Positions 1 through 21,445 of a stretch of DNA of 21,445 nt are shown piece after piece; the first letter of the stretch is position 1; each line of letters begins with the position of its first letter. Where the stretch lies: positions 1-21,445 of the IMG/VR virus record IMGVR_UViG_2698536428_000013. One strand, given 5' to 3'. A program made the position numbers and the translations under genes. Source of the DNA: a virus. Taxonomy: Duplodnaviria > Heunggongvirae > Uroviricota > Caudoviricetes. The notes beneath the pieces are model-generated. The model saw only the letters and a list, made by a program, of their open reading frames with translations. It was not told where the DNA came from and made no database searches.

Positions 1-1980
1 TTATGCTGATTCCCGGTTTTCGTTAACTTTGACTGTGACCGTATCAAGCAGTACCGGATACGTCGCTTTTGCCCCCGTGATATCTGTCAGCGTCAGCGTA
101 TCTGCTGTAAAGCCATCATTTGTCCACATCACAAGGTCAAACGCCGTCTGCTCTGTACCATCAATCACCGGAACGACTCTTTCGCTGTTATTTCCCGCAA
201 AGCGGAAAACAACCGTATGCCAGTTATGGTCAAACGCACCAAATGTACCCAGTTGTGCATTCGACGTGCCCTTGTGGTGCATAAGATTCAGATTTGATGC
301 ATCCGTCTGAAGGAAGAATGATGCCAGCATACTGTTTGCTGCCGCGCCTGACGCCCACTGCGACACCGGCCAGTAGAGACCAAAGACAAACTGTCCGTTC
401 ACCAGTTCGCTTCCATCCGGAATTTTGAACCGTACGGCAATTTCCCCCCCCTTGCTGAGAAAATTTTTTGCCTCCTCCACTGCAACAGTACGGAACATTT
501 TCCAGGACGTCAGTTTACCGGGCTGTTTTTCCAGTCGCAGCGCTTTCCGTCCACCGTCATCAGTCACAGTGCCTTTGCCGCCGGAAGCACCCCACTGCTG
601 CTCTGTCAATGCACCATTTCCACTGTTCGCATCATATTCAGCCACCGTCCTGGTACTGCTCACGGCCCCATCATGACCAGTACCAGCAACACCGCCATCC
701 TGCGGTTTCTCAACATCCGGTGTCCCCGGACTGACAGGAGTTGTACCACCCGACTGCGGTGCGCTCTGCCCGGTAAGGAACGATAATGTCCGCCCGGCGT
801 ACTGCAAAATGGCACCTGCCAGGCGGTCTGAAACAAGGCCTCTTCGCGCCCATGAACTGAAGTGCGTTTTACGATCGGCTGCCGTCCAGTTACTGGCAGT
901 GCGTGAGGCAGCGCCATAGTATCCCGCCGGGATAATGTCCGGATCTTCTGACGGCTCGTTTGTCGGCACATTCACACCATGCTCATCCGTCATCAACGGC
1001 ACAAAGTGAATATTCTGCGCAACTTTGCCTTTATACCCACCGTAAACCGCCTCATACGGCGCTGCATACCTTTCCTTCCAGTAGTACGTGGTATCACCGC
1101 AAATCCACGGGACGCTGGCCGTTGTCCCGCCAGTACACTGCTCTGCCACATCTGCCAGTTCCGTACGGAACTGATTTACCATGGCAAGGAAAAGCGCATT
1201 GTGTTCTGCATGTCTCCCCGAACTGACATCTTTTTCCCCCTGCATCCAGATCACCGACAACAGCACGTTTTTCGGATTTTTCTTCAGGGCTGCACGCGTT
1301 CTGCTGACCAGGTCACGATACAACGGTTTATCCACCCCCCACAGGGAAGATCCCGCTGTCGCACCCGACGCCTCATTAAACGCGCCCTCTGCTCCCGCAG
1401 TAAATCCCGAATCGCCACGTCCACACGGGACAAGAAGGATCCCCGCACGGGCAGGCATAAACGGCAGCAGTTTTTTGGCCACATGCAGGGCATGCCCCAC
1501 ACAGCCATACTGCCCTTTATTGAGGTCTGCTTTCGGGTGATTCAGATTACTCACGTCCTGCACATCATGCAGACAATGGTCTGCAGGAATAATGTCGTTA
1601 TATGCACAGGCCGCACCGCCCGGTGTCACCGTGCTGCGACGCGCCAGTTGCTTAATACGCGGGTCAGGACGATCATACGTATCCGGCAGCGGCAGCCCCT
1701 CGCCAAAAGACATCGAGTTGGACTGCCCGGCCAGCGCAATGACAAAGTAATATTCCGGTTCGCTGGTGGTGCTGATAACAGCGCCACCATCACCCGACGG
1801 TTGCACCACCACCGGTGTGGTGACATCACCTTCCGCCGCAATGGCCTGCATCAGGGTATAGGGCGTGATGGCCACCGGACTGCCAAATGGCTGCCACCCC
1901 TCCTTCAGTTTTTGAGTCAGTCGCTCCGCAAGGTCTGACGGCGACGCCGCCCTGACCACGTCATAGTGTTTAAATGTCAT
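1..1980 (-). CDS. NanS-p-like sialate O-acetylesterase (DUF1737-like N-terminus plus SGNH/SASA esterase domain), 659 aa
   Basis: Complete ORF with TAA stop at bases 1-3. SD GGGAGG lies 5 nt upstream of the ATG at 1980. GQSN motif (ALAGQSNSMSFGEG) is typical of SGNH hydrolases. The N-terminus (MTFKHYDVVRAASPSDLAERLTQKLKEGWQPFG) resembles the N-terminus of NanS-p esterases of lambdoid/Stx prophages. It sits late, downstream of Q. Confidence 0.6.
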   Translation of the reverse strand: MTFKHYDVVRAASPSDLAERLTQKLKEGWQPFGSPVAITPYTLMQAIAAEGDVTTPVVVQPSGDGGAVISTTSEPEYYFVIALAGQSNSMSFGEGLPLPDTYDRPDPRIKQLARRSTVTPGGAACAYNDIIPADHCLHDVQDVSNLNHPKADLNKGQYGCVGHALHVAKKLLPFMPARAGILLVPCGRGDSGFTAGAEGAFNEASGATAGSSLWGVDKPLYRDLVSRTRAALKKNPKNVLLSVIWMQGEKDVSSGRHAEHNALFLAMVNQFRTELADVAEQCTGGTTASVPWICGDTTYYWKERYAAPYEAVYGGYKGKVAQNIHFVPLMTDEHGVNVPTNEPSEDPDIIPAGYYGAASRTASNWTAADRKTHFSSWARRGLVSDRLAGAILQYAGRTLSFLTGQSAPQSGGTTPVSPGTPDVEKPQDGGVAGTGHDGAVSSTRTVAEYDANSGNGALTEQQWGASGGKGTVTDDGGRKALRLEKQPGKLTSWKMFRTVAVEEAKNFLSKGGEIAVRFKIPDGSELVNGQFVFGLYWPVSQWASGAAANSMLASFFLQTDASNLNLMHHKGTSNAQLGTFGAFDHNWHTVVFRFAGNNSERVVPVIDGTEQTAFDLVMWTNDGFTADTLTLTDITGAKATYPVLLDTVTVKVNENRESA

Positions 1981-2174
1981 GAATCCTCCCGGTCGGGATA
2001 ATGTTGTGAGTCAGATGAGGGAACGGGCTGAAGTCCGGAAGTTACAGGACAATGGCAGGAGGAAGACTACAGCCCGCAATACGAAAAAGGCCGCGCTATT
2101 GCGCAGAGTGATTACTGTCGGATATTATTCGCCAGCTGAAATATTACTTCACGTTTTGTTGTTTATTCCTTGCC

Positions 2175-2203
2175 GCCCGCGTCTCCCAGCGCGGGCTTTT
2201 TTT
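2175..2203 (+). terminator. Intrinsic-terminator-like hairpin (GCCCGCG / CGCGGGC, 8-nt loop) followed by T7
   Basis: A 7-bp GC-rich stem at 2175-2181 and 2190-2196, then TTTTTTT at 2197-2203, seen directly in the sequence. Confidence 0.4.
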
Positions 2204-2204
2204 G

Positions 2205-2233
2205 TCCATAAGAAAGCCCCTCCGGAGAGGGGC
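2205..2233 (-). terminator. Intrinsic terminator (GCCCCTC-CGGA-GAGGGGC hairpin, U-rich tail on the minus strand)
   Basis: A 7-bp perfect stem at 2216-2222 and 2227-2233 with a tetraloop. On the minus strand it is followed by TTTCTTATGG. It lies downstream of the TerB-like gene and small ORF. Confidence 0.45.
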
Positions 2234-2474
2234 TGGAGAGTGGCGCTATGTGCCATTGCATGGTGCCGGGTGCCTCCCGGTGAGTTCAGTATCAGCACCT
2301 GAACCCGCACAGAAAGGATAAGGGTCGGTGACAAAACACCAGTTGCTGATTGCCCCTCCGCACAGGGGGATTCACCATGCCAGTTTCTTTTAACAAACTC
2401 CCCGCAAACCAGACAACAGTCAACCGCCTGAATTGTGAGGTATTTAAAAATTTCAACGGGTAACTGATACCCTG

Positions 2475-2627
2475 CTAATCGCCTGATGCTTTCTTTTTCA
2501 GCAACGGGGAAGCAACAACCACCACACCCGCCACCAGCACACCGTCAGCCAGCACTGACATTATCCGGCTGCTGAAGTCCACCATCACCACCAGAAACAG
2601 CAGGAGCGCAACCACAGCCAGACGCAT
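2475..2627 (-). CDS. Small hydrophobic membrane peptide, 50 aa (MRLAVVALLLFLVVMVDFSSRIMSVLADGVLVAGVVVVASPLLKKKASGD)
   Basis: Hand translation of the minus strand. The ATG lies 8 nt downstream of the TerB-like stop, so translational coupling is possible. Two hydrophobic stretches and a KKK C-terminal tail. Absent from the ORF track, presumably because it is under 60 aa. No strong SD. Confidence 0.35.
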   Translation of the reverse strand: MRLAVVALLLFLVVMVDFSSRIMSVLADGVLVAGVVVVASPLLKKKASGD

Positions 2628-2635
2628 TTTTACCG

Positions 2636-3067
2636 TCACAGATGATTCTCCAGACGAAGGCCCAGAACACCGGCAATCTCTTCCAGCACCTTGCGCTCTT
2701 CCGGCTCTATTTCGCCGTCTGCTTCGGCAACGGCCACCGCCACATCCAGCACGTCTTCCGCTTCACGCGTATCGTGTTTCACATCCTCGATCTCACGTAA
2801 CGCCGCTCGACGACCAATTTTAAAGTTCGTATCCAGCTGACCGATAATGGTTGCGCTAATCGCATTAATTTCTGACGTAAACGCGGACAACGCAGGCTGG
2901 TTACGCAAGACCTGCTCGATCTTCGCTTTCTCTGAAGCCTCACATTCACCATCTGCATAGGCCACCAGATAGGCTGCATTAATAACCGCCTGTGCCAGAT
3001 CACGTTTCTCAAACTTTTTAATTTCCACTGCCGCTCGGCGGGCTTTTTTACCAAAAATACCAAACAT
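2636..3067 (-). CDS. TerB-like domain protein (tellurite-resistance TerB family), about 143 aa
   Basis: Start chosen at the internal ATG (MFGIFGKK...) with SD AAGGA about 8 nt upstream. Two ADG-containing acidic motifs (YLVAYADGECEASEKAKIEQVL and VAVAEADGEIEPEERKVLEEIAGVLGL) resemble the repeated motifs of TerB. It is the first gene after Q and the tR'-like terminator. Confidence 0.55.
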   Translation of the reverse strand: MFGIFGKKARRAAVEIKKFEKRDLAQAVINAAYLVAYADGECEASEKAKIEQVLRNQPALSAFTSEINAISATIIGQLDTNFKIGRRAALREIEDVKHDTREAEDVLDVAVAVAEADGEIEPEERKVLEEIAGVLGLRLENHL

Positions 3068-3197
3068 CGTGACGTTCCTTTGGGTGGGTGAGCCAACGCC
3101 CGGGAGCGATCTGCCCACAGAGAAAGTCACACTGACCACTCCGTAAGCTCACCCCCGAAAGGCTCTGTGGTTGATATGCGCCGGGCGTGGCGCAGAT

Positions 3198-3223
3198 ACA
3201 AAAAAAGCCCGCCGAAGCGAGCC
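3198..3223 (-). terminator. tR'-like intrinsic terminator (GCUCGC-UUCG-GCGGGC hairpin plus U7-8)
   Basis: On the minus strand GCTCGCTTCGGCGGGC forms a 6-bp stem (one G-U) with a UUCG tetraloop, followed by TTTTTTTT. It lies about 180 nt downstream of the Q stop. Confidence 0.6.
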
Positions 3224-3235
3224 TGATAATAAATC

Positions 3236-3310
3236 TGGAGCGGGTAGCGGGAATCGAACCACGATAAGAAGGTTAACAGCCTTCCGTAATGACCTTTATA
3301 CGACTGACCC
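3236..3310 (-). other. tRNA-sized, tRNA-like element (probable degenerate or chimeric tRNA; not a confident functional tRNA)
   Basis: Minus-strand 75-nt segment GGGTCAG..CTCCA with U8, A14, G18G19, A21, a 5-bp anticodon stem GAAGG/CCTTC with loop CTGTTAA (U33, GTT, A37) and T-loop GGTTCGATTCC. The acceptor stem and T-stem do not pair. Confidence 0.3.
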
Positions 3311-3349
3311 AAATAAAAAAAGCCACCGTTGCAACTTAAGAGTCACTAA

Positions 3350-3400
3350 CGGCAGCATATGCCAATAGTGTTGCTCATTTGCTCAATGATGTCAACACGT
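3350..3400 (-). promoter_or_regulatory. Putative late promoter PR' / qut region downstream of Q
   Basis: TTGACA on the minus strand (plus coordinates 3390-3395) immediately after the Q stop. The -10 element is not clearly identifiable. Placement is by analogy to lambda PR'. Confidence 0.3.
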
Positions 3401-3401
3401 C

Positions 3402-3890
3402 CTATGCTACATGTTTAATTTTCTCTACACGTTTCCGGTTTTTAAACGCACTATCCAGAACCGGGTAAATCATAAACAACGAGGCATTAAGGATTTCGTC
3501 AACTTCCCGTCGACAGGTTGCGAGCGATGGTTTTTGAATGCGCCCGCCGCCCCGGCATAACATCTTGCGAGGTCTTGCGACGCAATGATAGTAAGATGCA
3601 ATGGCGTGCCTGGAAGAACCATGAGCGTAGTAGCTGAGGAGGATGCCGAAGGCTTTCTTGTCAATGTACATGACGGAATCGACGACCTGAGAAATCAACA
3701 TTCCATCATCATCATTACACATTGGTCTTGTCATAACTCTTCCCGGCTCTACGCTCTCCATGAACTTCGCTATTACGCTGCTCATGCGCTTTTCCAGACG
3801 ACCTGAATAAACCCATGCGCCCCACAGTTCAAGCCAGCCATTCAGCCAATCGTGCTGTTCTTTGGTGAGGTTTAGTTCTCTTATGCCCAT
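3402..3890 (-). CDS. Q: Late antiterminator Q (phage 21/82-type Q family, not lambda-type), 162 aa
   Basis: Position directly downstream of ninG. Conserved WGAW and CNDDD-type motifs (LELWGAWVYSG, PMCNDDDGMLI) as in the short Q antiterminator family. Confidence 0.65.
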   Translation of the reverse strand: MGIRELNLTKEQHDWLNGWLELWGAWVYSGRLEKRMSSVIAKFMESVEPGRVMTRPMCNDDDGMLISQVVDSVMYIDKKAFGILLSYYAHGSSRHAIASYYHCVARPRKMLCRGGGRIQKPSLATCRREVDEILNASLFMIYPVLDSAFKNRKRVEKIKHVA

Positions 3891-3933
3891 GCGACTTCTC
3901 CCTTGTTATCTGGAATGGTTTTTACTGAGAGCG

Positions 3934-4539
3934 TCATGCGGCCTCACTTCTGCTGTTTCGCAGGTCTTTGAGTTTCTGTTGGTACTCTGCCTTGATGGCC
4001 CTGCACTCTTCGACAGTCCAGCGATGGCGGTTATGGTTTGATTCGATTTCATCTACTGCTTCCTGCCCGATGCGGCTAATCAGTTCGACGCGATACGGAA
4101 CGAGATTTCCGCTTTTGTGCTGGTTGCACACCACGCATTGCTTGTGAATATTGCGTTCATCAAATCGGAGTTGAGGTGCCGCAGCAGTTGTCCGGTAATG
4201 TCCGGCATCCCACTGAGCAGACGTGAGCGTTCCGCACGAGATACATGGTAAGTCGCGGTCTCTTTCTCTGATGAAGGCGTTTACGGCTTGTTGGGCTTGT
4301 TTAATCCAGTAACTGCGGGGCTTTAAGGCGAGTTTTCGAATCTTCAGTTTATCTTTCTGTTTCTGCTCCTCTCGTCGTCGTTTATTCTCTGCTGCTTTTT
4401 CCGCTTTTTCGCGTTCTTTACTTCGTCGTTCGAGTGCTAATTGAGTTCCGTGTTCCGGGCAGCACCACCACTGATTTGAGAATGCCGGGTGAAACCATTC
4501 CTTGCATATTTTGCATTTCCTTCGCGCTGGTTTAGCCAT
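3934..4539 (-). CDS. ninG: NinG / Rap recombination endonuclease
   Basis: 201-aa product with Cys-rich N- and C-terminal motifs ([22 protein letters not shown]) matching recalled lambda NinG. TAATG overlap with the upstream gene. Confidence 0.85.
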
Positions 4540-5267
4540 TAAGCAGCCTCCCCTGTTACTTTCAGCATTCCGTTATCGAGCAGCTTTCTGGTCAGCCACT
4601 GTTGACCACGCCCGGTGATTTTTGTGGTGAACGATATCTGTATTCCGTGATTTGTGTTGACCGCTGTTTCTTTCACTGTGAAATAGCCGCGCTCCATATA
4701 TTCCTGCATTGGCACATTGCGCCGGGCACCTGAAGTAATAAGGATTTTGTGATCGCGCATCCACGCAAACAGTTTGTTTGGACCAATTCCAACAACCTTT
4801 GCATAGTTTCCAATCAAAATTCCGCTGGCCTCGCCAACGCGATCGGCAAACTCAACTTTAGGTGCTGCGAGAGCAAGCTGTTTCTCCAGTTCAGCCTTCT
4901 GGTCTTCAAGGTCGGCCGCAAGGCGCAATGCCTCAGAAAAGGTTTGTGGTATTTTCGCGGTTGCCCCTTCGAGTTCTCGCCAACGGTCAACAAGACGAGC
5001 GGTGAACTCTGGCGACAACTGAGCAACGACAATAATGCTGTCGCGCTTACCTTGTTCGCCCTCAAAAACGTAAGCATCTACGCCACGAAGTAATCCTAAG
5101 TTATTGATTTTTTCGAAAACCACCATTGGGGGATTTCGGATCACACCTCGAACCGCCAGTCGTTCAATGGATTGTTTCACCTTGTCATGACGACTTCCCA
5201 CCAACTCAGCGATTTCAATGCTTGTCATTTTGATGACGTTGCTATTTATCAGCTCGTTCATTGTCAT
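4539..5267 (-). CDS. Rha/Roi-family phage regulatory protein (antirepressor-like), about 240 aa
   Basis: N-terminal Rha-like motif ([23 protein letters not shown]) and nin-region position as for HK022 Roi. The start may be the second ATG (5261), which has better SD spacing. Confidence 0.55.
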
Positions 5268-5293
5268 GCCCTCTCATATTGAAAATTCAGCAA

Positions 5294-5319
5294 TAAAAAA
5301 CCCAGCCGAAGCTGGGTTT
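5294..5319 (-). terminator. Intrinsic terminator between the ORF6N-like gene and the Roi-like gene
   Basis: Minus strand ACCCAGC-TTCG-GCTGGGT hairpin followed by TTTTTTATT. Confidence 0.55.
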
Positions 5320-5335
5320 GTTAAGTTGTCAATTG

Positions 5336-6013
5336 TCAGTAGCGATGCAGTGAAGGCGGCAACTCTTTGCTCTTAAGCCTTACCCATGCGGAAAGATTCG
5401 TTGGTCCATCTGGCTCATTAATATCAACATCTCGTGTGTGATTGATTAAAACGTCTCTCGCCATTCCAATAACATACGAGAACTCATGACCGTAGTTGTA
5501 GCACCTGTCAGAATAGTTCGATTGAATTTGCTTTAGCGCCGGATACAGTTCGCGGAATAATGCCTGTGAACGGTTAGCATAATCCCATAGCCATACAAGG
5601 CTGTCTGTTTCTTTTGCGGAAAGCCCGTTGAGCTTCTTCTCTTGTTTGCCAGTATTTTTCTCGCCCTGGCTGAAATAGCAGTCTTCCAGTTTTTCGAACA
5701 CTTCCCACGCCTGATCGGTTTCGAGCATTTTTGCATGACGGGCTGCTCCGCGTTCTGTCCAGAGGATGAGGGAGCGGGCATTTTTACCAACTAACCCGAT
5801 TGTTTCGGGTCTGTTCTTAAACTCGCGTAATTCGTTTTTTTCAATTTTAAAGTAATGCTTTCCGGGCATGAATCGCGTCGTGTTGTTCAGAAAGTTATCA
5901 GAAATGTTTTTGATTTTTGTTCCGTAAAGGTGAGCCAACAGTTCAGTAGTAATTACGGGGATCTGGTTATAGGTAACAGGGGAAAGGTTTTCGACAGAAA
6001 TTTGAACAGCCAT
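5336..6013 (-). CDS. ORF6N/KilA-N-like domain phage protein (antirepressor-like), 225 aa
   Basis: SD GAGG 5 nt upstream of the ATG. The N-terminal segment ([23 protein letters not shown]...[15 protein letters not shown]) resembles ORF6N/Rha-type domains. Assignment is by motif memory only. Confidence 0.45.
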
Positions 6014-6176
6014 AATGACCTCGCGTTTCGATAATTTTTACCTCGCCACCGTCAGGTGCTAATCATCGTGGTGGCGAACTGTGCGGGGTTAGCACTACCG
6101 GTCGAAACATCCGGCGAGCCTTTCGGCTCCCCCACACAGCCCGCCATAAATCGCGAATGTGACTGTGCTTAGCGCA

Positions 6177-6198
6177 TAAAAAAACCGCCAGCGCGGTT
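6177..6198 (-). terminator. Intrinsic terminator downstream of ninE
   Basis: Minus strand AACCGC-GCUG-GCGGUU hairpin followed by a T6-7 run. Confidence 0.5.
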
Positions 6199-6288
6199 AT
6201 GCACCGTTTCGATATCCGGGGTGCTAATCCCGACGCCAGATTTTGCTGGCGCGTGAGGAATATAGCCCCGAATAAATCATCGCGTCAA

Positions 6289-6471
6289 TCACCTTGTTTT
6301 CCTCGCACGATGTCTTAGCCACCGGATATCCCACAGGTGAGCCGTGTAGTTGAAGGTTTTTACGTCAGATTCTTTTGGGATTGGCTTGCGTTTATTTCTG
6401 GAGCGTTTCGTTGGAAGGTATTTGCAGTTTTCGCAGATGATGTCGGTGATACTTCGTCGCTGTCGCCTCAT
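6289..6471 (-). CDS. ninE: NinE
   Basis: About 60-aa product [60 protein letters not shown] matches the recalled lambda NinE. ATGA overlap with the upstream methyltransferase gene. Confidence 0.65.
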
Positions 6472-6995
6472 GCCGCCCTCCTGACGCCCTGCCCGATCGC
6501 CATCAATGCCGCTTTGGATACGGTAGTAAACATCCGTCGAGGACTGATGAACGGTCGCCAAATCAGCAGCATGGAGCCTTTGCTGTTTCCCTTCTTCTCC
6601 AGCCATGTCGATGGTTCGATAAAATTAATCCGTCCATCAGTGATAATGCGAACTTCGTCGACACTCTCCAGAGCCTTGCTGAACCATCCGACTGACATAT
6701 CCTCTGGCACAAGCATAACTACCGTCTGTCGCTGTTGTATGCACTGCTCAGCGGCTTTTTCCACCCACGGCCTGATATTGCTGTACGGTGGGTTATTCCA
6801 GATTGCACCGTGGCTTACCCACTCAGAATTGAGCGCGTCGTCGGCCTCAGTTAGCCAGTGAGCACACAGAGCATTTTTGTCGCTCGCTGCCGAATCCAGC
6901 CAGAATCCAAACTCAATATCCAGCGCATCAAAAAGCCAAAGCGGCGTTTGCCAGCAGTCCTTGTCGTGTGCTGGCGTATTTGATTTGATAGTCAT
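6468..6995 (-). CDS. Phage Dam-like DNA N6-adenine methyltransferase, about 175 aa
   Basis: NPPY catalytic motif (WNNPPYSN). Start taken at MTIKSN, overlapping the ninB stop. Occupies the ninC-ninF position. Confidence 0.7.
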
Positions 6996-7432
6996 GCAGC
7001 CCTGTCTCCCCATCGCGCTTTCCATTCGAGAGCCAGTCGCGCTTCGTCCGACCACTTAACGCCACGCTCTGTACCGAATGCCTGTATAAGCTCTAATAGC
7101 TCCGCAAATTCGCTTACACGCATTCTGCTGGTTGACTGGCCTATTACCACAAAGCCATTCCCGGCAAGGTTAGGAACAACGTCCTGCTGCTTTAATGCTG
7201 CGGTAAACACACACTTCCAGCTTTCTGCATCCAGCCAGCGCCCATGCCATTCAACCTGACGAGAGACGTCACCAAGGCAAGCCCAAAGCTTTCGATTCTG
7301 GTCTAAGCTGCGGTTGCGTTCCTGAATGCTTACTACGATTGGTTTGGTTGGGTCTGGAAGGATTTGCTGTACTGCGTGAATAGCGTTTTGCTGATGTGCT
7401 GGTGATCGAATTTCAAAGGTTAGTTTTTTCAT
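6992..7432 (-). CDS. ninB: NinB (Orf-family recombination mediator)
   Basis: 146-aa product starting MKKLTFEIRSPAHQQNAIHAVQQILPDP, near-identical to the recalled lambda NinB. Confidence 0.85.
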   Translation of the reverse strand: MKKLTFEIRSPAHQQNAIHAVQQILPDPTKPIVVSIQERNRSLDQNRKLWACLGDVSRQVEWHGRWLDAESWKCVFTAALKQQDVVPNLAGNGFVVIGQSTSRMRVSEFAELLELIQAFGTERGVKWSDEARLALEWKARWGDRAA

Positions 7433-7448
7433 GACTTCCCTCTCCCCC

Positions 7449-7480
7449 AAATAAAAAGGCCTGCGATTACCACCAGGCCT
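7449..7480 (-). terminator. tR2-like intrinsic terminator between ren and ninB
   Basis: Minus strand AGGCCTG-(loop)-CAGGCCT 7-bp stem followed by TTTTTATTT. Confidence 0.6.
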
Positions 7481-7505
7481 GTTATTAGCTCAGTGATGTA
7501 GATGG

Positions 7506-7796
7506 TCATCTTTTAACTCCATATACCGCCAATACCCGTTTCATCGCGGCACTCTGGCGACACTCCTTAAAAATCAGGTTCGTGCTCACCTTTCCTTCCC
7601 GTTCTTCCCTGGTAGCAAACCGGTAATACACCGTTCGCCAGACCTTACTATCAATGACCAGGATTCCTGCCCGCGCCATTTTAGCCGCAGCCTGATTTAT
7701 GCTGGTTACGGTTGCGCCTGTTACCGCGGAAACGTCCTGTGCACAGAAGTTCTTATGCGTCCCGAGGTAATGAATAATTGCCTCTTTGCCCGTCAT
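7506..7796 (-). CDS. ren: Ren
   Basis: 96-aa product matching the recalled lambda Ren. Overlaps the P stop. Confidence 0.8.
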   Translation of the reverse strand: MTGKEAIIHYLGTHKNFCAQDVSAVTGATVTSINQAAAKMARAGILVIDSKVWRTVYYRFATREEREGKVSTNLIFKECRQSAAMKRVLAVYGVKR

Positions 7797-8494
7797 ACAC
7801 TTGCTCCTTTCAGTCCGAACTTAGCTTTAATTTCTGCGATCTTCGCCAGAGCCTGTGCTCGATTTAGAGGTCTGCCGCCCATGACAGGAAGTTGTTTTAC
7901 TGGTTCAGGTATCATCTCACCACGGTTAATTCGTGCTGTCATACAGGTCAGTTCATCGGCAGCCTTGCGCCGTAATTCCGCGTCAGTCAGCGCATTGGCC
8001 CGCATGTTCTGGTACAGGTTGGTAACCAGCCAGTAGTGCGCGTTTGATTTCCACGGATAAGACTCTGCATCCGGATACAGGCCACGCTTCCGGCAATACT
8101 CGTAAACCATATCAACCAGCTCGCTGACGTTTGGCAGTCCGGCGATAACGGATGCTTCTTCCCGGCACCATGCAACAAACTGCCCTGGTGATGGAAGAAA
8201 TGGTCGATTCTGCCGACGGGCTACGCGCATTCCTGCGTTAACCTGTTCCATCGAGGTGATCCCGTTTTCCCGGAAAGCCAGAACCCACTGGCGGCGGATT
8301 TCATTCAGTTCGTTCTGGTCCCGGTTAGCCAGACTCGCCGGGAAAGTTGCCAGTAACTGGCTGAACACACCGTTGATGATCTGCGCTACCTGTTGTACCT
8401 GCGGCTTTTCGTCGTACTGTTCCGGCATGTTGTTGGCGATCCGACGCATCTGCTCACGGTCAAAGTTAACCATCTGTGCGGCGATGTTTTTCAT
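7793..8494 (-). CDS. P: Replication protein P (DnaB helicase loader)
   Basis: 233-aa product MKNIAAQMVNFDREQMRRIANNMPEQYDEKPQ..., near-identical to recalled lambda P. Confidence 0.9.
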   Translation of the reverse strand: MKNIAAQMVNFDREQMRRIANNMPEQYDEKPQVQQVAQIINGVFSQLLATFPASLANRDQNELNEIRRQWVLAFRENGITSMEQVNAGMRVARRQNRPFLPSPGQFVAWCREEASVIAGLPNVSELVDMVYEYCRKRGLYPDAESYPWKSNAHYWLVTNLYQNMRANALTDAELRRKAADELTCMTARINRGEMIPEPVKQLPVMGGRPLNRAQALAKIAEIKAKFGLKGASV

Positions 8495-9429
8495 AAATCC
8501 ACCCCGTAAATCCAGTCAGTGTTTGTCAGGTCGAGTTTTGGTTTTCCAGCTGTCACGCCAGCCTGTTGCTTGTTACGGTTGATTTCGAGTTGGGTCCACT
8601 TGTCGCGGAGTTTGGCCGGACTTAGCACGTTACCGGACCAGAAGTTGTCCTGGCATGCCCAGCGGAACAGCACGCACATGTCGCGGTGGTTACGTCCGTC
8701 ACGTTCACGCATCAGGCGGATATCGTTAGCCCACCCTGCAAAATTCGGTTTTCTGGCTGATGGTGCGATGGTCTTCACCATGTCAAACATCCACTCTGCG
8801 GCGGTCAGGTCTTCTGCTGTTCCCCACTTGCTGCCGCTCTGAATTGCAGCATCCGGTTTAACCACAGAAAGATCGTTTTCTGGCTGGTCAGAGGATTCGC
8901 CAGAATTCTCGGACGAATAATCTTTTCTTTTTTCTTTTGTAATAGTGTCTTTTGTGTCCCCCTGTTTTGAGGGATAGCAATCCCCTAATTTGAGGGATGT
9001 TTTATCACTCGTTTTAGGGGATTTTCCCTCGTTTTGAGGGATGTCCCTCATTTTAGGGGAACCTCCCTCGTTTTGAGGGATGCACCATTCTGAGGTGTTT
9101 TTATTTGGTCCAAACATGCCGCCTTGCTGCTTGATAATATTCATTCTGACGAGTTCTAACTTGGCTTCATTGCACCGTTTGACGGGTAACTTTGTAATCT
9201 CGCTAAGTTGAGAATCGGTGATTCTGTCCATTGGTTTATTCCACCCATAGGTTTTACGCAGAATGGCAAGCAGCACTTTAAACTGTCGCTTGGTCAGATC
9301 TGCGCCTGAATAAGCCTCAAGCAGCATATTTGATAGTCTGGCGTAACCATCATCGAGATCTGCCACATTACGCTCCTGTTCGGCAAAGTTACCTCTGCCG
9401 AAGTTGAGTATTTTTGCTGTATTTGTCAT
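8491..9429 (-). CDS. O: Replication initiator O
   Basis: 312-aa product MTNTAKILNFGRGNFA..., near-identical to recalled lambda O. Contains the ori iterons. Confidence 0.9.
   Translation of the reverse strand: MTNTAKILNFGRGNFAEQERNVADLDDGYARLSNMLLEAYSGADLTKRQFKVLLAILRKTYGWNKPMDRITDSQLSEITKLPVKRCNEAKLELVRMNIIKQQGGMFGPNKNTSEWCIPQNEGGSPKMRDIPQNEGKSPKTSDKTSLKLGDCYPSKQGDTKDTITKEKRKDYSSENSGESSDQPENDLSVVKPDAAIQSGSKWGTAEDLTAAEWMFDMVKTIAPSARKPNFAGWANDIRLMRERDGRNHRDMCVLFRWACQDNFWSGNVLSPAKLRDKWTQLEINRNKQQAGVTAGKPKLDLTNTDWIYGVDL
8880..9085. repeat. ori-lambda-type origin: iteron array (TCCCTCAAAACGAGGGA-type inverted-repeat iterons, about 8950-9085) plus adjacent A+T-rich segment (8880-8949)
   Basis: Repeated ccctcgttttgaggga / cccctaatttgaggga / cactcgttttagggga units seen directly. 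An A+T-rich run (tcttttcttttttcttttgtaatagtgtcttttgtg) lies next to it inside the O gene. Confidence 0.8.
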
Positions 9430-10194: not shown

Positions 10195-10911
<717 letters not shown>

Positions 10912-10981: not shown

Positions 10982-11980
10982 TTGGAAATCAGCACGGCGG
11001 TTATTCATTCCGAAGAAGATGCTTTGCGTTTTGTTGAGATGTACATCGCTGGGCAAGATCTTCCTGATGGAATATCATTTGAAGGGTGGCCTAACTTAAC
11101 CTTCCGTCTTACTGGTGACAAATTTCATGGCAGTTTGACTCCTTCTGTCATGAAGGGTTTTGTTGAAATGCAGGCCCAAATAAACCGAGCTTATGCATTG
11201 TTAAAGTACGGAGTTCCTGACCCAAGAAAGCTTTCAAAAGAAGAGAAGGAAGCTATCGAAATTCAGGTGAATGTTGAGAATGGCTCGTCCTTGATAGAAG
11301 TTAATATGGATGGGTTCATGGGTGAGGTTATACAAACTGCGGTGAGTAAAGTGGGCCCTCAAGAGATCGTTATTACAGTTTTAGGGGTCGCTCTTATATG
11401 GGGCGGCGTCGTCCTATTCAAAAAATATCTAGAAGACCGCAAAGAGATTCGCATGGCAGAAGTAAAAAGCGAGTCTGAGCGTGAACACCTTGCGACCATG
11501 CGCTTCATGTCTGAGCAGGAAACAAAACGAAGTGAATTATTGACTCAGATTATTAGCGAAAAACCCAAGCTAGACAACATGGAAAGACTTGCTCATGACG
11601 CAAAAACCGACATAGTTAAATCATTTGTCAAGGCTGATACAGCTCAGATTGATGGCGTTGTATTGGATGCAGATCTATCCAAAACCCTCACTACAAATGC
11701 AAGGCGGAAATCAATGGAGATCCGCCTTGATGGAAATTATCGCATTGAAAAGGTTGACTCCACTGATCCAGAGAGCTTCAAAGTGCAAGTGAGAAATGTT
11801 GACTCCGATCTAAGAATATCGTGCATAGTACAAGATGTTTTTCTCGACGCATCCGAGCATAAAAAAGCTCTTCAGCAAGCTGAGTGGGATAGAAAACCAG
11901 TTCATTTGTCAATCAACGCAAAAGAACTAGATGGTGAAATAAAGTCCGCGATAATACTTTATGTCAAAGAGATAACATAA
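10982..11980 (+). CDS. Unknown single-pass membrane protein in the rexAB position (candidate exclusion or defense gene), 332 aa from the TTG start
   Basis: ORF 70 nt downstream of cI on the same strand. TTG start has SD AGAGG at 7-nt spacing; the alternative ATG is at 11039. One predicted TM helix (EIVITVLGVALIWGGVVLFKKYL), then a charged, probably coiled-coil segment. Followed by the t_imm-like terminator. No resemblance to RexA or RexB. Confidence 0.6.
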   Translation: MEISTAVIHSEEDALRFVEMYIAGQDLPDGISFEGWPNLTFRLTGDKFHGSLTPSVMKGFVEMQAQINRAYALLKYGVPDPRKLSKEEKEAIEIQVNVENGSSLIEVNMDGFMGEVIQTAVSKVGPQEIVITVLGVALIWGGVVLFKKYLEDRKEIRMAEVKSESEREHLATMRFMSEQETKRSELLTQIISEKPKLDNMERLAHDAKTDIVKSFVKADTAQIDGVVLDADLSKTLTTNARRKSMEIRLDGNYRIEKVDSTDPESFKVQVRNVDSDLRISCIVQDVFLDASEHKKALQQAEWDRKPVHLSINAKELDGEIKSAIILYVKEIT

Positions 11981-13668: not shown

Positions 13669-13733
13669 TATGCATACCAATAACGCTTCACTAGAGGCGT
13701 TTTCGTTATGTGTAAATAAATAAGGAGCACACC

Positions 13734-13874
13734 ATGCAATATGCCATTGCAGGGTGGCCTGTTGCTGGCTGCCCTTCCGAATCTTTACTTGAACGAATCA
13801 CCCGTAAATTACGTGACGGATGGAAACGCCTTATCGACATACTTAATCAGCCAGGAGTTCCCAAAAATGGATAA
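13734..13874 (+). CDS. cIII: cIII (FtsH/HflB inhibitor), 46 aa
   Basis: MQYAIAGWPVAGCPSESLLERITRKLRDGWKRLIDILNQPGVPKNG matches recalled lambda cIII, shorter at the C-terminus. SD AAGGAG upstream. Confidence 0.85.
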   Translation: MQYAIAGWPVAGCPSESLLERITRKLRDGWKRLIDILNQPGVPKNG

Positions 13875-18155: not shown

Positions 18156-18514
18156 TTAATCGTACCAAGCTGGAGCACATCCTCGAATATGCCAGACAGC
18201 AGAGGCATACTGGTCAGCATTGTAAAATTCCACCAGGGGATATGGTTGAAATCATGGAGATTGCCATGCGCAAGGCTGGCAATTCTCCGGTAACTACGGA
18301 TGGCTGGATAAGCTGTAGTGAGCGAATGCCGAACGATAAACAGTATGTTTGGTGTTGGGGTAAGTCTTACGGCTGGACTGAGTGCGATACCTTCGAAGGG
18401 TATTACGATTGTTCGAGAAACAAATGGTGGGCAGTTACTGACAATGGGGAAGAACCGGCATCGAAAGTAACCCACTGGATGCCGCTACCGGAGCCGCCGC
18501 AGGAGGTGAAGTAA
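18152..18514 (+). CDS. DUF551-like prophage protein, 120 aa
   Basis: Trp/Cys-rich C-terminal motif (WISCSERMP..YVWCWG..WWAVTD..VTHWMPLPEPP) typical of DUF551 proteins, from memory. Confidence 0.55.
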   Translation: MINRTKLEHILEYARQQRHTGQHCKIPPGDMVEIMEIAMRKAGNSPVTTDGWISCSERMPNDKQYVWCWGKSYGWTECDTFEGYYDCSRNKWWAVTDNGEEPASKVTHWMPLPEPPQEVK

Positions 18515-18708
18515 TGAACAACTTAATGACAACTAAACAAGTCGCTGATTTCTGTGGCGTTTCAGTATCGACAGTTCTTCGCTGGAACAGCGTAAACAGG
18601 AGAACTGGCCAGAAATACAGGCCTGACTTCCCAGATCCTGATATTAAATCCTGCCCAAATAAATGGGCATCACGCAAGATATACAGGTTTGCGGGAGTTA
18701 TTGAGTAA
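18514..18708 (+). CDS. Excisionase-like HTH DNA-binding protein (Xis/AlpA family), 64 aa
   Basis: TAATG overlap with the upstream gene. HTH-like segment TTKQVADFCGVSVSTVLRW. Last gene of the PL operon. Confidence 0.5.
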   Translation: MNNLMTTKQVADFCGVSVSTVLRWNSVNRRTGQKYRPDFPDPDIKSCPNKWASRKIYRFAGVIE

Positions 18709-18917
18709 TGAGAGTTAGCCAAGAGGTGAGATAATATCCATCTATGGCACAGAACTAAACATAATCTGACTATATGCTCTGTGCCAAAAACAGATGTTAT
18801 ATCATGTATTGTATGCTCATCCTGCAAAATATAAATTCCGCAGATACCCCTTACCTCTGAATATTAATCCACAATGGATGCGACAAAAAAGATTTTGAGT
18901 TGGCATCAGGCGAAATA

Positions 18918-20051
18918 TTAATAATTATAATACCCCATGCACAATGCCATCTGAGTCATCATATCCTGGTCTCTATCAATATTTATCTTGCCATCAGAAA
19001 AATCCAACACAAAGAAATGATGAAATTTCGGCGGAACAACTTTAGAGTAAAAGCAGAAATACTCATTATTCCTTTCATATTGAAAATTAACGTATATTTT
19101 TTTAATTTTTTTATTTTCCACTAGGTCCATAAACATTTTATTTAAATCTGACCTTTTACTTTCCTTGTCATCATCTTGAAGCTTAGGATCAAAGTAACGT
19201 ATTAAGCAGTTTTCAATAACTCTCCCCTCATTATCAACATCAATTTCATCCAGTAGAGAATTTGAAATATTAAAGACCACATTACATTTATTATTCAGAG
19301 ATATAATCCTTGGATTAAATATACTAAAACAAACAAAAAAATCATTATCGTCATTTGAAACGCTATACAGCATCTTTGATAAGCCACGGTGAATAAAATC
19401 AACAGGGCGCCGATGCGGATGACGTGTATATCCTACGTAATGCACTTCTGTATGAATTCCTAAATCAATATAATGTCCGTTTACGAAATCATGAACTGAC
19501 ATCACACATAAATTGCCATTTTCATATTCAATGTAGAGAAACTTCTCAGTTACTCTAACATTTGGAGTTACCTTCACTACCCCATTCTGCGTAAACGTGC
19601 AAAAGGAATATTTTATCCGAAGCTTTCGCTCTTCTTTGCCAATCAACAGAGTGAATACTATATTTTTTGTGAATGGGTTATACCTAGGCTGTTTCTTGGT
19701 TGAAAACCTCACTTTTTTTCTTGAACCTAAGAAATAAATAAATCTCTTTTCACAGCTTTCCCTCGTATATTTTTCCATAATTCTGAGATAGTTCTTTATT
19801 ATCTTATTTGTTCTTATATCATCAGGAGGATTAATTATCATATCATACCAAATACAATCGGTGTTAATGAGATCAATCCACAATGACTTATCGGCTTCTG
19901 AGAAAACCACGTTAGAGTTTATAAAATCAAAGTTTCCGCGAGTCATAAAACACTTCATCACATTAAAAATCACCTGCACATAATAAATTAAGTAGCAGAA
20001 GGTTCGCAAACCCTTACTTCTGTTTGTGCTATGATATTTTTCATAATTCAT
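18918..20051 (-). CDS. A+T-rich hypothetical cargo protein, 377 aa
   Basis: Long minus-strand ORF. Sampled 60-nt lines count about 18-30% G+C, against about 45-58% for neighbouring phage genes. Lies between the excisionase-like gene and the integrase. No motif recognised. Confidence 0.6.
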   Translation of the reverse strand: MNYEKYHSTNRSKGLRTFCYLIYYVQVIFNVMKCFMTRGNFDFINSNVVFSEADKSLWIDLINTDCIWYDMIINPPDDIRTNKIIKNYLRIMEKYTRESCEKRFIYFLGSRKKVRFSTKKQPRYNPFTKNIVFTLLIGKEERKLRIKYSFCTFTQNGVVKVTPNVRVTEKFLYIEYENGNLCVMSVHDFVNGHYIDLGIHTEVHYVGYTRHPHRRPVDFIHRGLSKMLYSVSNDDNDFFVCFSIFNPRIISLNNKCNVVFNISNSLLDEIDVDNEGRVIENCLIRYFDPKLQDDDKESKRSDLNKMFMDLVENKKIKKIYVNFQYERNNEYFCFYSKVVPPKFHHFFVLDFSDGKINIDRDQDMMTQMALCMGYYNY

Positions 20052-20209
20052 CGATTGGCATCCCTACATCCTTAGTCCCACAGTAACCCAATAAACCATC
20101 AAACTCCTGCCGACACCCCAAATACTGAAGCTACCGGTTAACGTAGTCTGGCTAAAAACCCAGTACACAAGGTATCCGCAGCGGACTGGCAGATATGATT
20201 ACGCTCTGG

Positions 20210-21445
20210 CTACGCAAACTGTCCGTTGGAGATTAAGTCAGTACAAGTAACGATCGATTCAACCCTCTCCCACCATGCCCAGTAAGCTTTACGCTGTTCT
20301 TCTAGATAATCGCTCTTATCATAAACTTGCCATACACCTGGCAGTTTATGACCAAGCATTATTTCAGCAATATGAGGAGCAGTAAGATCAGAAAAGTTTG
20401 TTCGTGCTGTTCGTCTCAAATCATGAAGAGACCAATGAGGAAATTGATACCCCAAACGTCGCCATGCGAACTGCATTAAATTGTAAGGCAGCGACTGCAA
20501 TGATGTCCGACCAACTGGCTCCCTGCTTCCTTCCTTAGTAAAAAGCATATCGGAACCGTTGTTCATAGAGATAACGTATTTTATAAGCTCTTCAACCGGT
20601 TCAATAATGGGCCGCTTTAGCGGTTCGCCTGTTATGTCCCCAGTCTTATGTCGTTCTGGTGGTACAGTCCATACCTTATCTATGAAATCAAAATCATCCA
20701 CCCGGGCAGTAATTAGCTCTGAACTACGGCAACCAAAATGCAGCAATAGTTTAATGAAGGCCCGGTATTTAGGAACCATTCGAGAACCATCGATCGCAGC
20801 ATAAAGGATTTTAATTTCATCATGTGTCAGAAACCGTTTCTTCTGACCTTTACGGATATCCATATCTTTACCCGTGATATCCGACAGCGGGCGAGTTTCA
20901 ATGAGCTTTCTCTTATACGCCCAGACATGGGCCTGCTTTGCGTTAATTAGCAATCGGTCTGCTATTGCTGGAGTCTTAGTGCTAAGAGGCTCCAGGACCT
21001 CTAACCAATCATGCAATGTAGCTACATCGTGAGGGATACTCCCGATTTTAGAGAACAGGTGCAGCTCAAATGAGCGGAGTATCTGCTCAGAACCTTTTTT
21101 ATTTTTTACACAATATGCTGCATACCAGGCACGGATCACAGACTCCACCGTCATGGCTTCAGTAGCTTTGCGTTTTTCTACCTGCTTGACCAATCGTGGA
21201 TTGCGGTTTGACTCGAGTTCACCACGAAGACGGATAACTTCTTCTCTGGCCTCTTTTAATCCAGTTGCCGGGTAAGTTCCGATATCAAGGCGCTCGCCTT
21301 TCCCTGCCCATTGATAACGATATTGGAACACTACGCGACCTTTCGGTGATACTCTGACAGACAAACCATCACGATCGGATTTAACCAAAACCTTATCACG
21401 TTCCTTTCCAACGACTGAACGCAACCACGCATCAGACAACGCCAT
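20210..21445 (-). CDS. int: Tyrosine integrase (P4-type, N-terminal arm-binding domain), 411 aa
   Basis: N-terminus MALSDAWLRSVVGKERDKVLVKSDRDGLSVRVSPKG is typical of P4-like integrases. C-terminal catalytic motifs HDLRRTARTN and Y in VYDKSDYLEEQR. The start codon is the last 3 bases of the window. Confidence 0.85.
   Translation of the reverse strand: MALSDAWLRSVVGKERDKVLVKSDRDGLSVRVSPKGRVVFQYRYQWAGKGERLDIGTYPATGLKEAREEVIRLRGELESNRNPRLVKQVEKRKATEAMTVESVIRAWYAAYCVKNKKGSEQILRSFELHLFSKIGSIPHDVATLHDWLEVLEPLSTKTPAIADRLLINAKQAHVWAYKRKLIETRPLSDITGKDMDIRKGQKKRFLTHDEIKILYAAIDGSRMVPKYRAFIKLLLHFGCRSSELITARVDDFDFIDKVWTVPPERHKTGDITGEPLKRPIIEPVEELIKYVISMNNGSDMLFTKEGSREPVGRTSLQSLPYNLMQFAWRRLGYQFPHWSLHDLRRTARTNFSDLTAPHIAEIMLGHKLPGVWQVYDKSDYLEEQRKAYWAWWERVESIVTCTDLISNGQFA

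What the first reader, a model, noticed from the sequence alone, without database searches (positions are those of the whole stretch)
18918..20051. Strongly A+T-rich 377-aa cargo gene between the excisionase-like gene and the integrase
By hand count on sampled lines this ORF is about 18-30% G+C, while the flanking integrase and early phage genes are about 45-58%. That marks it as recently acquired foreign DNA. It sits in the int-proximal accessory slot where prophages often carry morons, abortive-infection genes or virulence cargo. It is transcribed like int and opposite to the PL operon, so it could be expressed in the lysogen from its own promoter. The protein has no motif I recognise and is rich in N, K, Y and F. 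A phage-defence or other lysogenic-conversion role is inference from context.
Basis: partly seen in the sequence, partly recalled or inferred. Interest (0 to 1): 0.8.

Follow-up and report, generated by a model that had tools for sequence, protein, structure and literature searches.

The report
Unannotated GIY-YIG-like nuclease in prophage defence slot
The A+T-rich gene between the excisionase and the integrase is real swappable prophage cargo that encodes a previously unannotated protein with a hidden GIY-YIG-type nuclease core, and it sits in a slot where sister prophages carry known anti-phage genes, so it is most likely a new single-gene phage-defence nuclease, although this has not been tested.

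Summary
Homologues in other genera start at codon 36, so the likely CDS is 18918-19946 (342 aa).

The gene is the only content of a roughly 1.4-kb cassette (about 18,800-20,190). In eight sister prophages with the same integrase, this cassette is replaced each time by different genes. Three of the eight are known defence genes: Dsr1, a dGTPase and Borvo BovA.

The protein has no Pfam, NCBIfam or PADLOC match. It belongs to a family of about 215 clusters of free-standing proteins of about 335 aa. Four results place a divergent GIY-YIG nuclease core at residues 140-262:
- 7 of 97 relatives give sub-threshold PF01541 hits.
- hhalign gives 88% probability (P 3e-6), with clean controls.
- Y170, G172, R180 and E245 are conserved.

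Homologues elsewhere lie beside Bil, reverse-transcriptase genes, type I and type II restriction systems, and toxin-antitoxin genes.

Best reading: a new single-protein nuclease defence candidate. Function, trigger and expression are untested.

The parts
18918..19946 (-). Most likely CDS of the cargo gene (342 aa plus stop); a member of phrog_7779 and of an unannotated family of about 215 clusters at 50% identity
   Evidence: ORF list. phrog_7779 matches residues 36-377 of the long ORF at E 2e-246. The RefSeq model WP_225092812.1 is 342 aa. The 34-sequence alignment shows all homologues starting at M-x-R-G. In-frame stops lie 1-5 codons upstream of the conserved start in 5 of 8 other loci. The representative search found 215 proteins at E<=1e-3, all about 320-345 aa when complete.
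19947..20051 (-). In-frame 35-codon upstream extension of the maximal ORF; probably 5' leader or promoter region rather than coding sequence
   Evidence: Absent from all homologues in other genera. It contains the only minus-strand promoter-like match upstream of the conserved start.
19980..20009 (-). Candidate sigma-70 promoter (TTGCGA-18-TATTAT) 34 nt upstream of the ATG at 19946; weak evidence
   Evidence: Consensus scan, 9 of 12 matches. The region holds 8 promoter-like sites against 7.6 expected from shuffles, so there is no statistical support.
19530..19946 (-). N-terminal basic, beta-rich region (aa 1-139, pI 9.8) with the conserved patch E-K-R-F-I-Y-F-x-x-S-R-K-K-V-R-F; proposed nucleic-acid-binding or sensing module (inference)
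19161..19529 (-). Divergent GIY-YIG-like nuclease core (aa 140-262): S-V-H152-D-F, then H-Y170-V-G172-Y-T-x-x-P-x-x-R180-P-x(5)-H186, then I-E245-N-C-L-I-R-Y-F
18921..19160 (-). C-terminal subdomain (aa 263-342) with conserved S301, H310 and F312; packs against the core; function unknown
   Evidence: AF2 secondary structure. Conservation. The domain-only model loses the strands that flank the motif, which suggests the sheet is completed by other parts of the protein.
18800..20190 (.). Variable cargo cassette between conserved xis and int (borders approximate to +/-40 bp)
   Evidence: blastn of the window against eight sister prophages: homology ends at window 18708-18812 and resumes at 20180-20239.
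18514..18708 (+). Excisionase (left conserved flank of the slot)
   Evidence: phrog_1553 excisionase at E 8e-36; HTH_17.
20210..21445 (-). Tyrosine integrase (right conserved flank); found in 700 of 5426 complete E. coli genomes, next to yjjG in all nine annotated loci examined
   Evidence: Pfam Phage_integrase, Arm-DNA-bind_3 and Phage_int_M. Genome survey. Annotated loci.

Best explanation
The gene encodes a soluble, free-standing protein of about 342 aa whose central part is a highly divergent GIY-YIG-type endonuclease domain. That core is wrapped by a basic N-terminal beta-rich region and a small C-terminal subdomain, both without annotated relatives. The gene is carried as a one-gene cassette in the xis-int hotspot of a lambdoid prophage. 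It most likely acts as a single-protein anti-phage defence nuclease. Expressed from the prophage, it would cut the DNA of superinfecting phages, or DNA in general once triggered, through the Tyr/His-Arg-Glu metal-dependent GIY-YIG chemistry. The non-catalytic regions would supply target recognition or autoinhibition. Shown here: the cassette nature of the gene, the hotspot, the family, and the GIY-YIG-like fold and motif. Inferred: nuclease activity, the defence role, expression in the lysogen, and the way self is spared.
Confidence: 0.55

Rival explanations
1. A free-standing homing-endonuclease-like selfish gene. The GIY-YIG nuclease would cut the empty xis-int junction of related prophages and spread its own cassette by recombinational repair, with no benefit to the host.
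Against: The domain order differs: the nuclease is central, not N-terminal. There are no hits to NUMOD or HTH DNA-binding modules. Homologues occur at unrelated chromosomal sites beside restriction systems, Bil, reverse-transcriptase genes and toxin-antitoxin genes rather than at one cognate site. The same slot holds many unrelated cargos, including Dsr1, dGTPase and BovA, which fits a general hotspot better than homing.
Confidence: 0.1
2. A nuclease that serves the phage itself or acts as a toxin. It might degrade host or competitor DNA during lytic growth, as T4 EndoII does, or be an addiction or abortive toxin that stabilises the prophage, rather than a dedicated immune gene.
For: T4 EndoII is among the best structural matches. 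One homologue lies next to CcdAB and PIN toxin-antitoxin genes. The gene is in an induced, plaque-forming phage, PhiR63_1.
Against: It is transcribed opposite to the early operon and next to int. No antitoxin-like partner is conserved in any context. Many homologues lie on chromosomes outside prophages. Lambdoid phages have unmodified DNA, so host-DNA degradation in the EndoII manner would also hit the phage itself.
Confidence: 0.1
3. The GIY-YIG resemblance is convergent, or the site is no longer catalytic. The protein would then be cargo with a non-nuclease function, for example a binding or decoy protein or a superinfection-exclusion factor.
For: Every sequence-to-profile search with this protein is below threshold. 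Foldseek finds nothing. The GIY Tyr is His and the Asn is Asp in this protein. 14 of 97 relatives have lost two or more core residues, which shows the scaffold can persist without them.
Against: Independent sequence-profile and structure searches converge on the same superfamily, with the catalytic residues in register and clean negative controls. The putative catalytic residues are among the most conserved positions of the family.
Confidence: 0.15
4. A decaying or silent remnant of foreign DNA with no current function.
For: Very low G+C, which in E. coli often means H-NS silencing (established knowledge, not tested here). No promoter support above chance.
Against: The reading frame is intact in 61 of 62 genomes over at least 80% of the query. 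The family spans about 215 clusters across several proteobacterial groups and a campylobacterium (Arcobacter), with strongly conserved motifs and a confident fold at pLDDT 89.6.
Confidence: 0.03

Closest known systems
CMoRE / PD-T4-3 (single-protein type IV restriction enzyme with a GIY-YIG domain; PDB 9u75; PMC12923530)
   Different: CMoRE has the nuclease at the N-terminus and a C-terminal 5hmC-sensing domain, is 248 aa, and has a GIYxY-YIG motif. Here the core is central and flanked on both sides, the first motif residue is mostly His, and a long beta-hairpin is inserted before the Glu helix. No PADLOC PD-T4-3 model matches. Specificity for modified DNA is unknown here.
SNIPE (membrane-bound DUF4041-GIY-YIG nuclease that cleaves phage DNA during injection; PMC13190303)
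   Same: A single-protein GIY-YIG defence nuclease from E. coli that acts against lambdoid phages. It comes from the same research setting as phage PhiR63_1, which carries this gene.
   Different: SNIPE has an N-terminal transmembrane helix and a DUF4041 domain, with the nuclease at the C-terminus. This protein has no transmembrane segment in the 342-aa form (the Kyte-Doolittle maximum of 1.46 lies in the doubtful N-terminal extension) and no DUF4041 hit.
GIY-YIG homing endonucleases and T4 EndoII (I-TevI 1ln0; EndoII 2wsh)
   Same: The best structural and profile matches for residues 140-262. The Y-x-G ... R ... E spacing and register are shared.
   Different: Those enzymes are small or have the catalytic domain at the N-terminus with separate DNA-binding modules, and they belong to lytic phages. 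Sequence identity here is only 14-18%, and Pfam PF01541 is not reached.
Prophage-encoded defence hotspots (P2/P4 hotspots; bioRxiv 10.1101/2021.01.21.427644)
   Same: A fixed position in a family of related prophages, bounded by conserved genes, in which unrelated defence systems replace each other. Here that position lies between xis and int.
   Different: This hotspot belongs to lambdoid and yfdPQR-type prophages that share one integrase and are integrated next to yjjG. I found no description of it in the searchable literature.

Membership tests
GIY-YIG nuclease superfamily (Pfam PF01541) | Sequence match to the PF01541 model at its gathering score (22.6 bits) | tested here: not met
   The window protein has no PF01541 hit at E<=1. 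7 of 97 relatives hit below threshold, best E 1.8e-4. My five reference GIY-YIG sequences all pass.
GIY-YIG nuclease superfamily (Pfam PF01541) | Profile-profile similarity to bona fide GIY-YIG domains | tested here: met
   hhalign of A3 against a 124-sequence GIY-YIG alignment gives Prob 88.3%, P 2.9e-6, 84 columns. The reversed template, 20 column shuffles and the N- and C-terminal segments score 7.9-16.9 against 37.0. A smaller 7-sequence profile gave 54%.
GIY-YIG nuclease superfamily (Pfam PF01541) | The GIY-YIG alpha/beta fold | tested here: met
GIY-YIG nuclease superfamily (Pfam PF01541) | Second motif Y-I/V-G followed by the catalytic Arg about 10 residues later | tested here: met
   Y170-V-G172 and R180 are invariant in 34 sequences and kept in 86%, 90% and 84% of 97 sequences. 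They align to I-TevI Y17, G19 and R27.
GIY-YIG nuclease superfamily (Pfam PF01541) | First motif G-I-Y with the catalytic Tyr on strand 1 | tested here: inconclusive
   The candidate is S-[IV]-H152-D-F, with H in 78% and Y in 13% of members, 18 residues before Y170. hhalign does not cover it. The assignment is my inference.
GIY-YIG nuclease superfamily (Pfam PF01541) | Metal-binding catalytic Glu on the helix after strand 3 | tested here: met
   E245 is kept in 85% of 97 members and aligns to I-TevI E75.
GIY-YIG nuclease superfamily (Pfam PF01541) | Conserved structural Asn after the Glu helix | tested here: inconclusive
   The aligned position 260 is N in 50 of 97 members but D in the window protein.
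GIY-YIG nuclease superfamily (Pfam PF01541) | Metal-dependent nuclease activity | not testable with these tools
   Needs purified protein and mutants.
Anti-phage defence system (generic) | Reduces phage plating or yield when expressed | not testable with these tools
There is no mention in the searchable literature or in the DefensePredictor supplements. Brenes & Laub 2025 could not be read.
Anti-phage defence system (generic) | Co-localisation with known defence genes or occupation of a defence hotspot | tested here: met
   The same slot holds Dsr1, dGTPase or BovA in 3 of 8 sister prophages. Homologues lie beside Bil and reverse-transcriptase genes, type I R-M and McrA-like HNH, Dcm R-M, CTD6/MC2, and CcdAB/PIN. 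The samples are small and were not tested statistically.
Anti-phage defence system (generic) | Match to a catalogued defence family (PADLOC-DB v2.0.0) | tested here: not met
   0 families at E<=1.
CMoRE / PD-T4-3 | N-terminal GIYxY-YIG nuclease plus C-terminal 5hmC-binding domain; sequence homology | tested here: not met
   No PADLOC hit. The domain order differs. There is only fold-level similarity of the core.
SNIPE | Transmembrane helix, then DUF4041, then C-terminal GIY-YIG | tested here: not met
   No DUF4041 hit. No hydrophobic segment in the 342-aa protein.
GIY-YIG homing endonuclease | N-terminal catalytic domain tethered to C-terminal DNA-binding modules; a cognate insertion site | tested here: not met
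   The catalytic core is central, with no NUMOD or HTH hits. Homologues lie at many unrelated sites.

The most novel reading that the evidence does not exclude
This is the founding member of an undescribed single-protein immune nuclease family. A cryptic GIY-YIG active site (His in place of the first Tyr, and a hairpin insertion) would be gated by two flanking domains of unknown fold relationship that sense a phage cue not yet identified, such as a DNA modification, a replication intermediate or a phage protein. Prophages would trade it through a previously unreported xis-int defence hotspot next to yjjG in E. coli.
Probability: 0.35. Interest if true: 0.7.

Novelty: new variant of a known kind. 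Interest (0 to 1): 0.55.

Why it matters
If the prediction holds, it adds a defence family that is invisible to current annotation: Pfam, NCBIfam, PADLOC and PHROGs all give either 'unknown' or no hit. It is present in about 1% of complete E. coli genomes, including Stx-type lambdoid prophages, and in Klebsiella, Salmonella, Serratia, Proteus, Cronobacter and more distant bacteria. It would give a third architecture for GIY-YIG-based immunity, besides CMoRE and SNIPE, and a compact 342-aa protein that is easy to test. Independently of the gene's function, the survey defines a clean xis-int cargo slot in prophages that share one integrase (700 of 5426 genomes). Five of the eight sampled occupants of that slot are uncharacterised, so it is a ready source of further candidates.

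Tried and rejected
Direct HMM searches gave nothing useful.
- Pfam returned only a chance NNH2 hit at E 0.06. NCBIfam and PADLOC returned nothing.
- Family profiles searched against PDB sequences returned nothing, both for the full length (only a chance hit at E 0.97) and for the core domain.
- Foldseek of the full model against PDB gave no hit better than E 0.055.

Some resources failed or gave little.
- The afdb50 library was unavailable.
- Two look-ups of encoding contigs failed on the first try.
- The first attempt to collect GIY-YIG references with I-TevI alone returned only 9 close relatives. The 7-sequence profile built from them gave just 54% probability over 26 columns. A 124-sequence profile was needed.

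Literature searches for the accessions, the phage name and the PHROG id found nothing. The DefensePredictor supplements do not contain the sequence or accessions. Brenes & Laub 2025, the source of phage PhiR63_1, is not held, so I cannot exclude that the gene was assayed there.

Readings I considered and rejected:
- A membrane protein, suggested by the hydrophobic stretch in the 35-codon extension. Rejected because that extension is absent from homologues.
- A two-gene system or toxin-antitoxin pair. Rejected because no neighbour is conserved.

Full report
**Observation.** The window holds a 377-aa ORF at 18918..20051 on the minus strand. Its G+C is 31.9%, against 46.6% for the window, 45.1% for int (20210..21445) and 43.1% for xis (18514..18708). 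It is the lowest of all 1134-bp windows (mean 46.5%, sd 5.1) and the only trough in the 1-kb profile. The protein is rich in N, K, I, F, V, D and Y.

The 377-aa length is the maximal ORF. phrog_7779 (342 positions) matches residues 36-377. RefSeq annotates 342 aa. Every homologue from other genera starts at the equivalent of M36. In 5 of 8 homologous loci an in-frame stop lies 1-5 codons upstream of that start. I therefore take 18918..19946 as the CDS.

**Setting.** The window is part of a lambdoid prophage. It carries:
- a cI-like repressor (S24 peptidase plus HTH, 10198..10911);
- the lambda CIII thermoregulator (13721..13779);
- Ead/Ea22, DUF551 and excisionase genes, and then the cargo gene;
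- a tyrosine integrase with an arm-binding domain.

The early genes and xis are on the plus strand. int and the cargo gene are on the minus strand, with int upstream of the cargo gene.

**It is a swappable cassette in a hotspot.**
- The 1.5-kb segment 18700-20210 occurs in 62 of 5426 complete E. coli genomes. It is always chromosomal, the annotation under every listed hit includes a tyrosine integrase, and 52 copies are at least 99% identical.
- The integrase itself occurs in 700 genomes.
- I took eight integrase-positive genomes spread down the ranking. In all of them, and in a ninth carrying the cargo gene, the prophage lies next to yjjG. Homology to the window covers DUF551/xis up to window 18708-18812, then resumes at 20180-20239 at the int stop codon.
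- Between those borders each genome has different content: a 515-aa protein; two proteins of 160 and 150 aa; Dsr1; a CHAT-domain protein plus a 260-aa protein; a 183-aa protein; a 239-aa protein; a 331-aa protein; and a dGTPase-family protein.
- PADLOC recognises Dsr1, dGTPase and BovA (Borvo; the CHAT pair) among these, which is 3 of 8.
- The segment from xis through the cargo gene to int (window 18497-21445) is shared at 98.5% with a different prophage type, the yfdPQR type. That type includes the induced phage PhiR63_1.

**The protein family.** Pfam, NCBIfam and PADLOC give nothing for the protein. The word-indexed search found 37 clusters, all 'hypothetical', in Escherichia, Cronobacter, Salmonella, Serratia, Klebsiella, Proteus, Budviciaceae, Robbsia, Arcobacter, Psychrobium and Pseudomonadales. 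The exhaustive profile search found 215 representatives at E<=1e-3, 121 of them at E<=1e-30. All complete sequences are 300-350 aa with one architecture and no fusions. AlphaFold2 with the 34-sequence alignment gives a confident single compact model, with pLDDT 89.6 and pTM 0.87.

**A hidden GIY-YIG core.** The invariant block H-Y170-V-G172-Y-T174-x-x-P177-x-x-R180-P-x(5)-H186-x-G188, followed later by E240 and E245, looked like the 'YIG...R...H...E' half of the GIY-YIG motif. I tested this in four ways.
1. Scanning 97 diverse members against Pfam gave PF01541 as the most frequent family, with 7 members and a best E of 1.8e-4. All of these hits are below threshold.
hhalign of the family's residues 140-262 against it gives Prob 88.3% and P 2.9e-6 over 84 columns. 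It places Y170, G172, R180 and E245 on I-TevI Y17, G19, R27 and E75, and position 260 on N90. A reversed template scores 11.7. Twenty column-shuffled queries score at most 16.9. The family's N- and C-terminal segments score 11.7 and 8.1. The real comparison scores 37.0.
4. The four core residues are all present in 73 of 97 members.

Caveats:
- The window protein itself passes no curated threshold.
- HMM searches against PDB sequences and Foldseek found nothing.
- The 'GIY' tyrosine is not covered by hhalign. My assignment to S-[IV]-[H/Y]152 (H 78%, Y 13%) is inference.
- The Asn equivalent is Asp in this protein.
- A long beta-hairpin (about residues 201-228) is inserted between the Arg helix and the Glu helix.

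**Context of homologues elsewhere.**
- Robbsia andropogonis: BrxR, BilA-D, the homologue, then two RVT_1 reverse-transcriptase genes.
- Klebsiella variicola: HsdR/M/S, the homologue, Tlde1/Hcp, then a ScoMcrA-type HNH protein.
- Salmonella Carmel: a TraC-bearing element, with the homologue beside a Dcm methylase, DUF4928 and Vsr.
- Proteus mirabilis: CTD6/MC2 conflict-system genes, the homologue, then an IS, near smpB.
- A Pseudomonadales genome: beside CcdAB and a PIN protein.
- Arcobacter, a Budviciaceae genome and one metagenomic contig: uninformative.

No neighbour is conserved across these contexts, so the gene acts alone. In all seven loci tested the gene is 7-21 G+C points below its surroundings.

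**Mechanism proposed.** I propose a single-protein nuclease defence. The prophage would express the protein, either from a promoter of its own or by read-through from int. The GIY-YIG-like site (H152/Y170 as proton acceptors, R180 stabilising the transition state, E245 binding the metal, by analogy with I-TevI and UvrC as established knowledge) would cleave incoming phage DNA. The basic N-terminal region and the C-terminal subdomain would supply DNA binding, target choice or autoinhibition, as the extra domains do in CMoRE and SNIPE.

The steps shown here are the cassette nature, the hotspot, the family, and the GIY-YIG-like fold and motif. Activity, the defence role, the trigger, how self is spared and expression are all inferred. 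The promoter-like site at 20009..19980 is no more than a consensus match, because the region has 8 such sites against 7.6 expected.

**Comparison with known systems.** The protein works most like the single-protein GIY-YIG defence nucleases CMoRE/PD-T4-3 and SNIPE, but it is a member of neither. There is no PADLOC match, the domain order is different, and it has no transmembrane helix or DUF4041. It also does not have the architecture of a homing endonuclease. Membership of the GIY-YIG superfamily is supported at the profile-profile and fold level but not by Pfam's own threshold. Two of the classical motif positions (the GIY Tyr and the Asn) are unresolved.

**Novelty and verdict.** I found no publication, curated family or defence catalogue that names this protein. 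One directly relevant paper could not be read. I rate it a new variant of a known kind: nuclease-based single-gene defence in a prophage hotspot. Interest is 0.55. The candidate is well supported and easily testable, and the hotspot is well defined, but there are no functional data and many such candidates exist.

Noticed in passing
window 10982-11980 (+): A 332-aa ORF (TTG as first possible start) lies immediately downstream of, and co-oriented with, the cI-like repressor gene (10198-10911). This is the position that rexAB occupies in lambda. It has no Pfam or PADLOC match, so it may be a second cargo gene expressed in the lysogen.
   Followed up: partly
family alignment A2 (distant members such as P0102, P0110, P0121, P0138, P0139, P0160, P0166): 14 of 97 family members, all among the most divergent, lack two or more of the four core residues (Y170, G172, R180, E245). 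This may be a catalytically dead subclade or misalignment at high divergence.
   Followed up: partly
L013 2224-4355 (E. coli O121:H19 strain 16-9255): The Borvo gene bovA that occupies the same xis-int slot is split into two ORFs. The 260-aa ORF matches BovA positions 3-263 and the 433-aa ORF matches positions 286-715. It is probably a frameshifted or otherwise inactivated copy.
   Followed up: no
window 18497-21445 against L001 and L002: The segment from xis through the cargo gene to int is 98.5% identical between this lambdoid (Stx-phage-like) prophage and yfdPQR-type prophages such as phage PhiR63_1. The rest of the genomes differ, so the integration module and its cargo move as a mosaic block. 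The xis ORF is not annotated in those records.
   Followed up: partly
window 6067-6265 (-), 2204-2409 (-), 3241-3310 (-), 13721-13779 (+): Rfam gathering-level hits: C4 antisense RNA with its a1/b1 target and isrK (a P1/P7-type antirepressor control region), sRNA STnc100, a tRNA, and the lambda CIII thermoregulator.
   Followed up: no
window 20210-21445 (-) and the window end: int is transcribed towards xis (convergent) rather than co-directionally as in lambda. The window ends exactly at the int start codon, so the att site and the int promoter lie outside the window.
   Followed up: no
L003 3969-13129 (Robbsia andropogonis): A compact defence island: a BrxR-type WYL regulator, BilA-D, the homologue of the cargo gene, and two adjacent reverse-transcriptase genes (661 and 430 aa), all within 9 kb next to groES/groEL.
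   Followed up: no
L010 2778-4325, L011 3431-4407, L014 3770-4321, L015 3502-4221, L016 3122-4117: Five further occupants of the same xis-int slot are hypothetical proteins without a PADLOC match (515, 160+150, 183, 239 and 331 aa). They are additional uncharacterised candidates from the same hotspot.
   Followed up: partly
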